This document shows positions 17,701 through 20,700 of a stretch of DNA of 35,453 nucleotides, in pieces. The DNA lies in the IMG/VR virus record IMGVR_UViG_2908567220_000004. One strand, written 5' to 3'. The DNA comes from a virus (Duplodnaviria > Heunggongvirae > Uroviricota > Caudoviricetes). A program made the position numbers. Position 1 is the first letter of the stretch; each line of letters starts with the position of its first letter.

Positions 17701-20700
17701 AATACATTATGAGTTCTCGGAAATTGTTTGCTGCCAAGTCATTGTTTGCTCTAGCTATGGCTATTGCTGGTGCCCATTTTTTACACGACCTAGATCACAA
17801 TGCTGTCATTTCGGCTGCTGGTGCTCTTTCAACTATTTCTGGAGTTCTCTTTGGTTTTGTTTTGGCATCAGTCACCATGCTAAGTAGCTTTGATAGTTCA
17901 AAGGGAATTGTAGGCGCTCTAAAAAGTAACGGAGTACTAAAAGGCATTATTGAGGGGCTTTTTGATACAGGAACTACGCTGATCACAGCCTGCCTATTAG
18001 CAATGATCTCGATGTTTGCCCCTGTTGTCAGCAATCTGCCTCTGGATTATTATGCCCTGCTACTCGCAGGGGCATATTTGATTATATCAATGATAACTTT
18101 TTTCTTTAACTGGAAATCTTTATCTAAAATAATAAGTTACATATGATAAATATTTCAAAATGAGTCCCCCTGCTACGGATAGTCCTTGGCTTAAAAAATA
18201 CCGTCACCGCTGAATACCCACACAGTGCCCCCACCCATTTAGTTGGCATAATGTATTCAACTGATTGAGGAATGGCTCCTCTTTTACTACCAAACGGCCA
18301 TCGCTGGCGCATTCATCCGCTGGTAGTGGAACTTTTTAGCCATCAGCGCCTCCCTAAATCAATTCCTTACATCGCTCAAATTCAACAACCATTGTTGTAA
18401 TCTTGCTGCTATCAAGTAACGCCTTTGTATTACGCCGACTTTATCTTGCCAGCAACATACGCCATCCGATAATTTCGATGTTACGCGCGCGTACTTGTCG
18501 CAAAATATCAGACAAAAGCCAGATTCAGAACGTCGTGATAACCACCAGCACAACATGAAAGGTCATGTAACGCGATTTATCACACCAGATACATGTGATT
18601 GGTGTACCCGCATAAAACATTGTCATAGCGCGTCCTGTGCGCATATAGGCCGATAATCAACACATCACCACCACTCTGTCTCATGTAGAGAACAGTTTTA
18701 TGGTATCCCCCGCCATCGTGTGTGTATTGGTCGGACGTAGTTGCAAAATTTTTTGCAACTGATACCCCTCGCGCGCGTACTTGTCTCGAAATTGGTGTTT
18801 TGCTGTGGCAGTGATATCAGAAAAATCTTCCTGTTTCACATAAAGCGGATATGCGCGTACTGTAACGACCCCATCAACGGGGGCGGATTTGAAATCCCGA
18901 CCCTAGCTATGTACCAAATGCCATGTCTTGGATATATGATGATTGCCAATCTAAACAACGCTAAAGGGAGGGTTGGTGTGAATGCTCAGGCTGTCATCAT
19001 GGTTTTCCTTGGTCTGATTGTCGCAAAACTATATCCAGACTGGTGGAAAGGGGCATTAGCAACTGTCGCCATCTATTTGCTTTTATCCGTCGTTAAGCGA
19101 TCGTTCGCTAAGACCATAAATCAAGCAAAACGTTTCTCATTTAAGAATTTAATAAACTATATTACTGGTCTTATTTTTTGCCTTTCAATTTTGATCGCTT
19201 CAGCTTTTTTGCCCGTATCAATAGCTAATTTTTTTGGCGCATCATATGAGGTAGGTTATCTATTCTCTGTTTTTTGTCTTGTTCTTGCCCTTCTTTACCT
19301 GTGGATGAGAGCAAAGAACAAAAATTAGCCATCCGTGGCTAACCAGTTATTGAGCTTCTTTTTGTGATGCCTGTGCGACTCTGGTGAGCGATTGTGTGAC
19401 CGTACTGATCGCTCTGTCATATGCTGTGCTACCTTTTGGCGTATTTGCCAGACGTAACAAGGCATTTCGTATAACAGGGCTTTCGTATGCCTTCGCTGCT
19501 CCGCCTACGGCACCAGCAGCAGGAACAACAAACGCAGCCGTTTTTAGCATCCCCGCTAATACTGCTGCGTTTATGATGCCACCACCAACTAACAATCCAT
19601 AAAGCTGCTGACCATTTAAGTTTTGAACGTTCGCTTTTGCCGCGTGTCTTGTATCGTTGAGGTATTTAATAACGCCGTCCAGTTCCTTTCCATGTACGCC
19701 TTTAAAGAAAGTTGCTGATTGCTTCCTGTTCCGGTGTAACGCATTAATAAACTTCTCAACACTGATATTTCCAGACGGATCAGTCGCCTTATCTACAGCA
19801 TTCTGAACTATGGCCGCTCGTGCGTTTTGCCTACCATTGTCATCCAGAAGCCTGTAAAGCTGAGAACGTTCTGATGGGCTTTGGCTAAAAACGAGTTTTG
19901 TTACATCCTCAGGCGTGGCCTTGCCGCTGGCTATTGCCTTTTGAACGCGCGTTCTTCCCATCATGTCATTGAATTTAGACCATGAGCGATCAACCCTTGC
20001 CATATTAATGGCTTCGTCTGCTCCAAGATTTTTGGCTACGGCTTTTTTCATATCCGCCGTATATGCCTTGTAGATAATATCGCTGGCTTTCTGGAGCGTA
20101 TCTTTATCAACAGTGTCAGATGACGCCATAAATCGCTTTCGAAGATCGGTTCTGTTTTCCCTCGCCAGACGCAGGTCATTTGGTCCGCTGGTGATATCGT
20201 CTTTAAATTGCTGCAAGACTTTTACCGCGGCTCTATCCTGAGATTTGCCCGGGCGGCTTAACACGGCAATCTGATTGTCGATAGCTTTTACCGTGTTTGA
20301 GAGATCGACAGGGGTATCCCCCATAGCGTCAATTATGCGGTTATATCGCTTTCCTGCTGCCTCAATGAATTTTTGTTGCCCTTTAGTCGCAGATTCATAA
20401 AGCTGTTTATCAGAAATGCCACCCAGACCATCGCTAAATGTTCTGACTAAATTTTCTCGTGCTTGTTGTTGATTCAGCCGATTCTTACCGGTTCCAAAAA
20501 AAGGAACTCTTTCGCCTAATGTCTGAGCCTGACTCTGCATAAAGGTTTTATCTTTCAGCATGTCACTGGTCATTAACGGCAGATTTCTTTCCGATGCAAA
20601 GTCGACAGCAGCCTTTGCTTCAGGCGACATATCACCACGAACAGCCCTCGAAACCGCACTCGCTGTATTTTCCAGCCCCTTACCAATACCACCAATGCCA

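What the first reader, a model, noticed from the sequence alone, without database searches (positions are those of the whole stretch)
18147..18977. 830-bp non-coding gap with 16-bp exact direct repeat CGCGCGCGTACTTGTC and palindromes
Within the candidate defence locus, copies at 18484-18499 and 18771-18786 (each within a TACGCGCGCGTA-type palindrome) plus GTTGCAAAATTTTTTGCAAC at 18741-18760. This may be regulatory DNA for the downstream membrane ORF, a decayed gene, or an undetected RNA gene. No convincing ORF spans it.
Basis: seen in the sequence. Interest (0 to 1): 0.4.

Follow-up and report, generated by a model that had tools for sequence, protein, structure and literature searches.

The report
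Non-coding repeat region in satellite island
The 830-bp gap is real non-coding DNA inside a known kind of phage-parasitic island (EcCIMP1 family) in E. coli: it holds a dead piece of a phage DNA-packaging gene and a conserved stretch with a repeated short motif that may be how the island gets packaged, though this is untested.

Summary
Only the first repeat sits in a perfect TACGCGCGCGTA palindrome.

The gap lies inside an 18.7-kb EcCIMP1-type phage-inducible chromosomal island (att cores at 15296 and 34017). It has three zones:
- 18147-18304: the 3' flank of the cargo genes.
- 18305-18474: a decayed minus-strand fragment of a Terminase_2 small-terminase gene, codons ~24-65 only. Intact relatives occur in ordinary prophages, never at this locus.
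- 18475-18892: a core present in about 545 of 5426 E. coli genomes. It is 95-97% identical even between island subtypes whose neighbouring genes are unalignable.

The core shows no stable reading frame, no codon periodicity, no protein homologues, no Rfam match and no fold signal. It carries four same-orientation motif copies. The motif recurs elsewhere in related islands, marks homology breakpoints, and is 22/22 identical in Serratia beside shared iterons.

My best reading (0.35) is cis-acting protein-binding DNA, most likely a packaging-recognition site for the helper phage terminase. Inert debris kept as a recombination anchor is nearly as likely (0.30). Nothing here was tested experimentally.

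The parts
15296..34026 (-). The whole EcCIMP1-type phage-inducible chromosomal island (PICI) that contains the gap. It is bounded by the 10-bp att core GATAATAGGA at 15296 and 34017, next to tRNA-Thr.
   Evidence: att cores; tRNA 34013-34085; 98.9% identity to EcCIMP1 of E. coli MP1 over window 22713-34100; the paper gives TCCTATTATC as the att core.
18147..18304 (+). 3' flank of the two + strand cargo genes (16611-18146). It is found only in islands with this cargo and contains a terminator-like hairpin at 18267-18281 followed by a T run.
   Evidence: only about 38-96 genomes cover this part; hairpins at 18267-18281 and 18316-18330.
18305..18474 (-). Decayed fragment of a phage small-terminase gene (Terminase_2 type). 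Codons ~24-35 map to 18471-18436 and ~41-60 to 18434-18375. In this window it is broken by an 11-bp deletion. It is better preserved in other islands and absent in one class of islands.
   Evidence: searches (tblastn; GN06489 copy 83% over aa 24-59, E 1e-14; 92-93% DNA identity over 105 bp to intact Klebsiella prophage terS), (11-bp deletion; no terS C-terminus or terL remnant; islands whose homology starts at 18475).
18446..18473 (+). Promoter-like site TTGCCA-16-GATAAT just upstream of repeat 1. It lies in the relic and is not kept in islands whose homology begins at 18475.
18475..18892 (.). Universal conserved non-coding core. In some classes it extends to 18903 or to 18980.
   Evidence: 545 of 5426 genomes; breakpoint classes; 95.0-97.1% identity to all other subtypes, ABU 83972 being identical; present in EcCIMP1.
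18484..18506 (+). Repeat 1 (R1): the exact 16-mer plus a 7-nt extension, inside the 12-bp palindrome at 18482-18493. On the minus strand it reads TTTTGCGACAAGTACGCGCGCG.
   Evidence: invariant in 20 of 20 distinct copies; 22/22 identical in Serratia.
18717..18732 (+). Degenerate motif copy (Rd), 11/16 here and 13/16 in most genomes. It recombines with R2 to delete the 48 bp that hold the palindrome.
   Evidence: deletion variant L015.
18740..18759 (.). 20-bp palindrome GTTGCAAAA-TT-TTTTGCAAC. The arms are conserved; the central two bases vary (TT or AA).
18770..18792 (+). Repeat 2 (R2): the exact 16-mer plus extension. One position (18782) varies in 6 of 18 copies.
18853..18861 (+). Fourth motif copy (Re), the 9-mer GCGCGTACT, near the right edge of the core.
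   Evidence: present in EcCIMP1.
18963..18980 (+). Ribosome-binding site AAAGGGAGGG and GTG start of the small membrane ORF (18978-19328). Homology between islands stops exactly here, and different ORFs follow.

Best explanation
The gap is non-coding DNA at the edge of the cargo slot of an EcCIMP1-family phage-inducible chromosomal island.

Shown:
- It is a mosaic of a cargo 3' flank, a dead ~100-nt piece of a phage small-terminase gene covering only its DNA-binding-domain codons, and a ~420-bp conserved core.
- The core has no coding or RNA signature.
- The core carries four same-orientation copies of a 9-22-nt motif (minus strand TTTYGNGACAAGTACGCGCGCG).
- The motif is conserved at the DNA level where everything around it has diverged.

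Inferred:
- The motif is a protein-binding site.
- The most likely user is the helper phage's terminase. The region would then act as the island's packaging-recognition (pac-like) site, letting an island that has no terminase gene be packaged by a P22-like headful helper.
- The repeated copies also serve as crossover points where cargo modules are swapped.
For: Context. The island is 98.9% identical to EcCIMP1 over 11.4 kb, and EcCIMP1 contains the core. The EcCIMP1 paper reports specific, non-generalised transfer by phage Kapi1, no terminase gene, and an unknown packaging mechanism.

Not coding.
- Predicted ORFs read different frames in different copies.
- Indels are 1 bp, 11 bp and 48 bp.
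- Only about 9 of 30 variable sites fall at third-codon positions (my count).
- Just 41 and 16 hits, essentially all the same locus, were found in 5.8 and 1.8 billion proteins.

Not RNA.

DNA-level constraint.
- The core is 95-97% identical to the GN06489-type island, whose gp16 is unalignable, gp20 is 72.5%, primase 86.8% and relic 78.8% identical.
- R1 is invariant in 20 of 20 copies.
- The same 22-mer occurs in at least four otherwise dissimilar island contexts: R1, R2, R3 after PerC, and R4 in the leader before isrK/C4.
- It is 22/22 identical in two Serratia genomes, 35 nt from iterons that are only ~80% identical, with nothing else shared.

Link to packaging.
- R1 abuts a terS fragment limited to the DNA-binding-domain codons.
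- The best match between the core and the helper Kapi1 genome is the motif itself against terS codons 58-63 (17/18), in the FRDKYA reading frame. R2 extends this to AKH-FRDKYA. That terS is shared at >=98% identity by Sf6, HK620 and Sf101.
- From my own knowledge of Leavitt et al. 2013, the Sf6 pac site lies in the part of terS that encodes the DNA-binding domain. P22 pac lies within terS.
Against: - The Kapi1 match is short. 3 of 300 shuffles reach the same score, and another Kapi1 region ties with it.
- No cultured phage or IMG/VR contig has the 22-mer inside an intact terS.
- No P22 pac sequence is present.
- Extra motif copies after PerC and in the replication-operon leader are odd places for pac sites.
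- The terS relic is absent in one island class. One contig has lost the 286 bp between R2 and R1. Most of the region is therefore dispensable.
- Against YJ6 and MP1, the core (95.3-96.7%) is less conserved than the neighbouring genes (97.7-99.1%), as neutral DNA would be.
- I could not read the paper that maps the Sf6 pac site.
Confidence: 0.35

Rival explanations
1. Inert debris. The gap is left-over sequence from past recombination between the island and phages: a terS fragment plus unidentifiable remnants with no function of its own. It persists because cargo exchange by homologous recombination uses it as one of the two conserved flanks. The motif copies are duplication products that act only as crossover points.
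For: - Broken frames, homopolymer indels, and 11-bp, 48-bp and 286-bp deletions.
- Uniform spread of substitutions across codon positions.
- Negative GC skew like minus-strand genes.
- The core diverges more than adjacent genes in the YJ6 and MP1 comparisons.
- Homology breakpoints sit at the motif.
- The terS relic is variably decayed or missing.
Against: - 22/22 identity of the motif in Serratia, beside ~80%-identical iterons and otherwise unalignable DNA. My estimate is about 0.7% if neutral at 20% divergence.
- An identical 22-mer in four dissimilar contexts.
- The core is the best-conserved segment between divergent island subtypes.
- About 420 bp is retained in some 545 genomes at several chromosomal sites, despite the usual deletion bias in bacteria.
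Confidence: 0.3
2. Regulator-binding array. The motif copies are operator sites for an island or helper DNA-binding protein, for example the AlpA/excisionase-type regulators, which in related systems bind arrays of direct repeats. They would control the variable genes on either side and the replication-operon leader.
For: - The copies lie in intergenic or leader positions: the core between variable genes, R3 after PerC, R4 upstream of isrK/C4.
- The conserved block ends exactly at the RBS and start codon of variable downstream ORFs.
- Palindromes and a promoter-like site are present.
- A second AlpA/Xis-like gene sits next to the gap in EcCIMP1.
Against: - In EcCIMP1 the + strand ORF downstream of the core is absent.
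- The only good promoter-like site lies in the dispensable relic.
- Motif spacing (233, 53 and 83 bp by start positions) shows no helical phasing.
- This window's island has no alpA_1 gene.
Confidence: 0.15
3. Replication accessory site. The motif belongs to the island's second iteron locus, comparable to the ori1/crr pair of satellite P4, and helps the P4 alpha-like primase-helicase.
For: - In Serratia the 22-mer lies 35 nt from the iteron set that in E. coli sits upstream of PerC.
- The island has two inverted iteron sets, at 24630-24741 and 16160-16259.
Against: - In E. coli up to 2.2 kb of variable cargo separates R1 from the iterons, so adjacency is not required.
- No motif copy lies next to the primase-proximal iterons.
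- There is no AT-rich unwinding element in the core.
Confidence: 0.1
4. An unannotated gene. Either a small non-coding RNA, or the 123-aa minus-strand ORF annotated in some genomes (WP_001444474), here inactivated by two 1-bp deletions.
For: An intact 123-aa ORF is annotated in strain YJ6 and covers window 18580-18958. R1 and R2 contain mutually complementary 10-mers 278 nt apart.
Against: - Frames differ between copies.
- There is no codon periodicity.
- No Pfam or PHROG family matches.
- There are no homologues outside this locus.
- No Rfam match, and fold z-scores are -1.5 and -0.9.
- The motif is not complementary to the island's C4 RNA loop.
Confidence: 0.05

Closest known systems
EcCIMP1, a phage-inducible chromosomal island of E. 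coli MP1 (Pick, Stadel & Raivio, ISME J 2025, PMC11773190)
   Same: Same integration site (tRNA-Thr next to proA) and same att core. Identity is 98.9% over 11.4 kb, and gene order is the same: integrase, AlpA, AntA/B, ash, TOPRIM/DUF927 primase, P22-type gp14/7/20/16, cargo, PerC. EcCIMP1 contains the same core with R1, R2 and Re, plus R3.
   Different: The cargo next to the gap differs: two unknown genes here versus alpA_1 in MP1. MP1 lacks the small membrane ORF. The paper does not describe this non-coding region and leaves the packaging mechanism open.
pac sites of headful-packaging phages that lie inside their own small-terminase gene (P22 gene 3; Sf6 gene 1)
   Same: The region holds fragments resembling the DNA-binding-domain coding part of two terS types. 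The repeated motif matches terS codons 58-63 of the Sf6/Kapi1 type at 17/18.
   Different: There is no intact terS, no P22 pac sequence, and the match to the helper is statistically marginal. Cleavage or binding was not tested. The Sf6 pac position is from my memory of Leavitt et al. 2013.
Packaging signals of other satellites: the cos site plus Rpp in EcCICFT073-type PICIs, and TerS-S plus a SaPI-specific pac in staphylococcal islands
   Same: The position in the island is comparable: after the replication and interference genes and before the accessory genes. The logic is the same, in that the satellite must be recognised by helper terminase.
   Different: Those islands either copy the helper's cos and encode Rpp, or encode their own TerS. 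Here neither a terminase-related gene nor a cos site was found.
Conserved boundary (linker) sequences at module junctions of lambdoid phages
   Same: A short conserved sequence sits exactly where homology between mosaic relatives starts or stops.
   Different: Here the same 22-mer recurs several times per element and also in a different genus, with no flanking homology.
Satellite phage P4: ori1/crr iteron pair and RNA-based immunity (CI RNA with seqA/seqC targets)
   Same: The island has a P4 alpha-like primase, two iteron sets, and C4/isrK RNAs inside the 'ash' ORF. One motif copy (R4) lies in that leader in some relatives.
   Different: The motif is not complementary to the C4 loop. That loop varies between islands while the motif does not.

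Membership tests
EcCIMP1-type PICI (the element that contains the gap) | Tyrosine integrase next to a tRNA gene, with direct att-core repeats bounding about 19-20 kb | tested here: met
   Integrase ORF at 32630-33844, tRNA at 34013-34085, att core GATAATAGGA at 15296 and 34017, an 18.7-kb span.
EcCIMP1-type PICI (the element that contains the gap) | AlpA-type regulator, primase, PerC; no capsid, lysis or terminase genes | tested here: met
   RefSeq annotation of the 99.9%-identical ABU 83972 locus. Pfam and PHROG hits for PerC and P22 gp7/gp20/gp14. Only a dead terS fragment was found.
EcCIMP1-type PICI (the element that contains the gap) | Helper-phage-dependent excision, replication and transfer | not testable with these tools
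   Shown experimentally for EcCIMP1 in MP1, not for this copy.
Small terminase gene (Pfam Terminase_2, PF03592) | Intact ORF of about 136-143 aa scoring above the Pfam gathering threshold | tested here: not met
   The best frame-repaired copy scores 19.2 bits against a cutoff of 26.1. Only codons ~24-65 are detectable, with stops and frameshifts.
Small terminase gene (Pfam Terminase_2, PF03592) | Followed by a large terminase gene | tested here: not met
   No terL remnant by tblastn. Intact relatives are followed by terL and portal genes in prophages.
Phage-type pac site | Sequence match to the known pac of the helper's terminase type | tested here: inconclusive
   The P22 pac sequence is absent at up to 5 mismatches.
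Phage-type pac site | Bound or cut by terminase; required in cis for packaging | not testable with these tools
   Needs transduction and end-mapping experiments.
Known non-coding RNA family (Rfam 15) | Covariance-model match, or at least a thermodynamic or covariation signal | tested here: not met
   No match at E<=1 in 16000-21000 and none at gathering threshold in the window's gap. Fold z-scores are -1.5 and -0.9.
Target site (seqA/seqC type) of the island's C4/CI antisense RNA | Complementarity to the C4 loop | tested here: not met
   The C4 loop UUUCCUUGUACGCC pairs with CAGTACAAGGAGG near 29931, not with the motif. The loop differs in L021 while the motif is the same.
Iteron-type replication origin | Clustered, regularly spaced repeats flanking an AT-rich stretch, next to the initiator gene | tested here: not met
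   Motif start-to-start spacings of 233, 53 and 83 bp, with no AT-rich element. Classical iteron sets lie elsewhere, at 24630-24741 and 16160-16259.
Anti-phage defence system | Match of neighbouring proteins to PADLOC models | tested here: not met
   No PADLOC or NCBIfam hit for the two cargo proteins, the membrane ORF, or their counterparts in MP1 and YJ6.

The most novel reading that the evidence does not exclude
EcCIMP1-family satellites carry no terminase gene. Instead they keep short terS-derived decoys, namely the repeated 22-mer (Sf6/Kapi1 terS type) and in some islands a Terminase_2 fragment. These would act as pac sites matched to different helper terminase types, so one island could be packaged by several P22-like phages. 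The same sites would double as the joints where defence and accessory cargo is exchanged.
Probability: 0.2. Interest if true: 0.65.

Novelty: new variant of a known kind. Interest (0 to 1): 0.4.

Why it matters
The authors who described EcCIMP1 showed specific transfer by phage Kapi1 but found no terminase or capsid-redirection genes, and they left the packaging mechanism open. This work points to a defined candidate of about 420 bp, and within it a 22-bp motif, that can be deleted, mutated or cloned to test that question directly. It also shows where the variable cargo slot of this widespread island family (about 10% of complete E. coli genomes) begins and ends, and that the motif marks the crossover points. 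If the region proves inert, the result still matters for annotation. The 'hypothetical protein' ORFs called here in many genomes are spurious, and the left part of the gap is a terminase pseudogene fragment.

Tried and rejected
- **Rfam.** Scans of the gap at E<=1 and of the whole window found nothing in the gap.
- **RNA folding.** Both strands give non-significant z-scores.
- **Similarity searches with the gap.** BLAST against cultured phages found no match. Against plasmids, the one hit is a mislabelled chromosome.
- **Protein families.** Pfam and PHROG scans of the 123-aa ORF and repaired frames found nothing for the repeat-2 part.
- **Protein homologues.** Two large searches with that ORF returned only the same locus. 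The 'decayed recognisable gene across repeat 2' reading is rejected.
- **More phage remnants.** tblastn with Kapi1 and Klebsiella prophage proteins (terS C-terminus, terL, ORFs upstream of terS, immI-region ORFs) found none.
- **P22 pac.** The sequence is absent.
- **C4 antisense RNA target idea.** Rejected.
- **First genome-contig scan.** A 24-mer from the core found nothing.
- **Sf6 pac position.** The key paper is not held and reviews give no coordinates.
- **Synonymous-site conservation.** Analysis in Terminase_2 terS and comparison with a divergent Sf6-type terS show only mild, non-decisive trends.
- **Soil, marine and Acidobacteria occurrences of the 22-mer.** They lie in ordinary intergenic DNA with no shared context. 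I treat them as probable chance matches in CG-rich genomes, not as evidence.
- **PADLOC and NCBIfam on cargo proteins.** No hits.
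Full report
**1. Observation**

Reading the sequence confirms an 831-bp stretch between the stop of a 145-aa ORF (18146) and the likely GTG start (18978) of a small membrane ORF. The 16-mer CGCGCGCGTACTTGTC occurs at 18484-18499 and 18770-18785, and the 20-bp palindrome is at 18740-18759.

The repeat is far beyond chance. No other close copy exists in 35 kb, shuffles expect 0.26 matches even at up to 3 mismatches, and it extends to 21/23. Only copy 1 lies in a perfect 12-bp palindrome.

Two weaker same-orientation copies were missed:
- GCGCGTACT at 18853-18861.
- A degenerate copy at 18717-18732, which is 13/16 in most other genomes.

No ORF longer than 65 aa lies within the gap.

**2. Where it sits**

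The window is E. coli, 99.9% identical to strain ABU 83972. The gap lies inside an 18.7-kb island bounded by the 10-bp core GATAATAGGA at 15296 and 34017, next to tRNA-Thr and proA.

On the minus strand the island reads, in order:
- integrase, an AlpA-type HTH, AntA/B, and an 'ash' ORF;
- a TOPRIM/DUF927 primase;
- P22-type gp14, gp7, gp20 and gp16;
- a convergent small membrane ORF;
- the gap;
- two unknown cargo genes;
- PerC.

It is 98.9% identical over 11.4 kb to EcCIMP1 of E. coli MP1. That island was shown experimentally to be excised and specifically transferred by the P22-like phage Kapi1. Its authors found no terminase or capsid genes and could not say how it is packaged.

**3. Anatomy from comparison**

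The gap matches 545 of 5426 complete E. coli genomes, but most match only part of it. Homology starts at window 18305, 18439 or 18475 and ends at 18892, 18903 or 18980. This gives three zones.

- **Zone 1 (18147-18304)** goes with this particular cargo and holds a terminator-like hairpin.
- **Zone 2 (18305-18474)** is variably present.
- **Zone 3 (18475-18892)** is universal, and EcCIMP1 itself has it.

On the right, homology stops exactly at the ribosome-binding site and GTG, and different ORFs follow. In MP1 there is no + strand ORF there at all. On the left, different cargo follows: Abi, ImmA/IrrE, HTH genes and others.

Between this window and the GN06489-type island, conservation varies widely:

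| Segment | Identity to GN06489-type island |
|---|---|
| Core | 95.9% |
| Zone 2 | 78.8% |
| Primase | 86.8% |
| gp20 | 72.5% |
| gp16 | no detectable DNA similarity |

. Against the closer YJ6 and MP1 islands the reverse holds: the core (95.3-96.7%) is less conserved than the neighbouring genes (97.7-99.1%).

**4. Zone 2 is a dead terminase fragment**

Minus-strand translation of better-preserved copies reads ...RMAYAAGNMKTDSINRKAKELLDNGKIAARVAEFEQ*.
- A frame-repaired version hits Pfam Terminase_2 below threshold (19.2 bits against 26.1, E 0.002) and PHROG small-terminase families.
- A search of 5.8 billion proteins returns intact 136-143-aa small terminases of Klebsiella, Enterobacter and Ewingella at 62-66% identity, E about 1e-10.
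- tblastn gives 83% over residues 24-59 for the GN06489 copy (E 1e-14), and the DNA is 92-93% identical over 105 bp.
- Those intact genes sit in ordinary prophages, followed by large terminase and portal genes, never in an island of this kind.
- Only codons ~24-65, the helix-turn-helix DNA-binding part, survive. No C-terminal or large-terminase remnant exists.
- In this window the fragment is further broken by an 11-bp deletion. In one island class it is absent, with the junction 9 nt from repeat 1.

**5. The core is neither a gene nor a recognisable RNA**

Some genomes annotate a 123-aa minus-strand ORF here. In this window it is cut by two 1-bp deletions. The evidence is against a real gene:
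- Predicted proteins from different copies switch among all three frames.
- Variable sites show no third-position excess, about 9 of 30 by my count.
- No Pfam or PHROG family matches.
- Neither the indexed search nor an exhaustive HMMER scan of 1.84 billion representatives finds anything outside this locus.

For RNA, Rfam finds nothing, and folding is no better than shuffles, with z of -1.5 and -0.9.

**6. The motif**

On the minus strand the repeat reads TTTYGNGACAAGTACGCGCGCG.

Within islands:
- Scanning IMG/VR finds it in 21 stretches, and a metagenome scan adds more island copies.
- Apart from the soil and marine contexts below, these fall into at least four otherwise dissimilar island contexts:
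  - R1 and R2 in the core;
  - R3 just beyond PerC, which is present in EcCIMP1;
  - R4 in the leader upstream of the isrK and C4 RNAs in some relatives.
- The 22-mer is never inside an intact terminase gene in the IMG/VR stretches or in the non-island metagenome contexts I examined.
- R1 is invariant in 20 of 20 distinct copies.

Homology breakpoints cluster at the motif:
- a junction 9 nt after R1;
- a junction 17 nt before R2;
- a 48-bp Rd/R2 deletion;
- one contig with an R2-left/R1-right hybrid that has lost the intervening 286 bp.

Across genera:
- Among the representative genomes of 185,579 species, only two Serratia genomes and one probably chance Acidobacteria hit carry the 22-mer.
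- In Serratia it lies 35 nt from an iteron set ~80% identical to the one upstream of PerC here, at the end of an island, and nothing else is shared.
- That collinearity implies the E. coli cargo, and the terminase fragment, were inserted between R1 and the iterons.
- About seven soil and marine contexts also carry the 22-mer, in ordinary intergenic DNA. I regard these as probable chance matches in CG-rich genomes, but they are not fully explained.

**7. Link to the helper phage**

Kapi1's small terminase is of the Sf6 type (PF20901) and reads ...LAKHEDFRDKYAKATEA....
- Both R1 and R2 match its codons 58-63 at 17/18, in the same reading frame. The R2 context extends the resemblance to AKH-FRDKYA with third-position-type differences.
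- This terS is shared at >=98% identity by Sf6, HK620 and Sf101.
- The match is short. 3 of 300 shuffles reach its score and another Kapi1 segment ties with it. It counts only because it involves precisely the repeated motif and precisely terS.
- A divergent Sf6-type terS keeps this patch fairly well, and synonymous sites in Terminase_2 genes are only mildly more conserved in the N-terminal part. Neither result is decisive.

**8. Interpretation**

Shown:
- The gap is non-coding mosaic DNA in a known satellite family.
- It contains a terminase pseudogene fragment.
- It contains a conserved core whose short motif is held constant at the DNA level and acts as a recombination joint.

Inferred: the motif is a protein-binding site. 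I rank a packaging-recognition role first (0.35), for four reasons:
- The island must be recognised by a helper terminase yet encodes none.
- The region is where satellites usually keep such signals.
- It is built from pieces of two terminase genes that encode DNA-binding domains, where pac sites of such phages lie. P22 is covered; Sf6 rests on my memory of Leavitt et al. 2013.
- The motif's best phage counterpart is in the helper's terS.

The alternatives:
- **Inert debris kept as a recombination anchor (0.30).** This explains the indels, the dispensable parts and the neutral-looking divergence. It does not explain the Serratia and paralogue conservation.
- **Regulator-binding array (0.15).** This fits the dispersed copies.
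- **Replication accessory (0.10).** This fits the Serratia adjacency, but not the variable separation in E. coli.
- **A gene or RNA (0.05).** This is essentially excluded.

**9. Novelty and caveats**

The island family is published. This region and its motif are not described in that paper. If the packaging reading holds, it is a variant of known satellite strategies: helper-type signals without a satellite terminase or Rpp.

All functional claims are inference, and no experiment or expression data were available. The sample of aligned copies is 23 distinct sequences with about 4-5% divergence, which limits the periodicity and conservation tests. I designed the frameshift repair of the terminase fragment by eye, although the unrepaired tblastn and DNA matches stand on their own.

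Noticed in passing
window 24630-24741 and 16160-16259: There are two iteron sets in inverted orientation (GTTGGTTCA x3 ... AT-rich ... TGAACCAAC x2-3), 77-84% alike. One lies just 3' of the TOPRIM/DUF927 primase gene and the other lies upstream of PerC, 8.4 kb away. They resemble the ori1/crr pair of satellite P4. The PerC-side set is also found in Serratia next to the 22-mer.
   Followed up: partly
window 29945-30032 (-) and 30095-30172 (-): Rfam gathering-level matches to C4 antisense RNA and isrK lie inside the ORF annotated as 'ash family protein'. A sequence complementary to the C4 loop and overlapping an AAGGAGG lies near 29931. The island therefore probably has P4/P1-type RNA immunity, and the 'ash' ORF may largely be an RNA locus.
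   Followed up: partly
L044, L052, L059, L062, L065, L067, L087, L093 (metagenome and genome loci): The exact 22-mer TTTYGNGACAAGTACGCGCGCG also occurs in about seven unrelated soil, marine and Acidobacteria contexts. These are ordinary intergenic DNA with no shared flanks or island genes. This is somewhat more than my rough chance estimate of 1-3.
   Followed up: partly
L055 (metagenome contig), equivalent to window 18500-18785: This is a natural variant in which R2's left flank is joined through the motif to R1's right flank. The 286 bp between the two repeats have been deleted.
   Followed up: no
window 15665-15700: A direct repeat CTACGAAATTTTCG x2, separated by 6 bp, lies between PerC and the distal att core.
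   Followed up: no
window 14112-15275 (+) and 1-14000: A second tyrosine integrase lies immediately outside the island's att core at 15296, followed by what looks like a different prophage or island. In ABU 83972 and MP1 this position holds a MarR/Vat island instead. The thrW site therefore carries tandem, interchangeable elements.
   Followed up: no
window 16611-18146 (+): The two cargo genes (361 aa, phrog_7651; 145 aa, phrog_8552, predicted membrane protein) have no Pfam, PADLOC or NCBIfam match. They occupy the slot that holds Abi or ImmA/IrrE genes in sister islands.
   Followed up: partly
window 24035-24584: Another conserved, mostly non-coding block lies between gp14 and the primase gene. 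It is 93.8% identical to the GN06489-type island, whose flanking genes are much more divergent.
   Followed up: no
window 1206-1645 (-): There is an Rfam cspA thermoregulator match (156 bits), outside the island.
   Followed up: no
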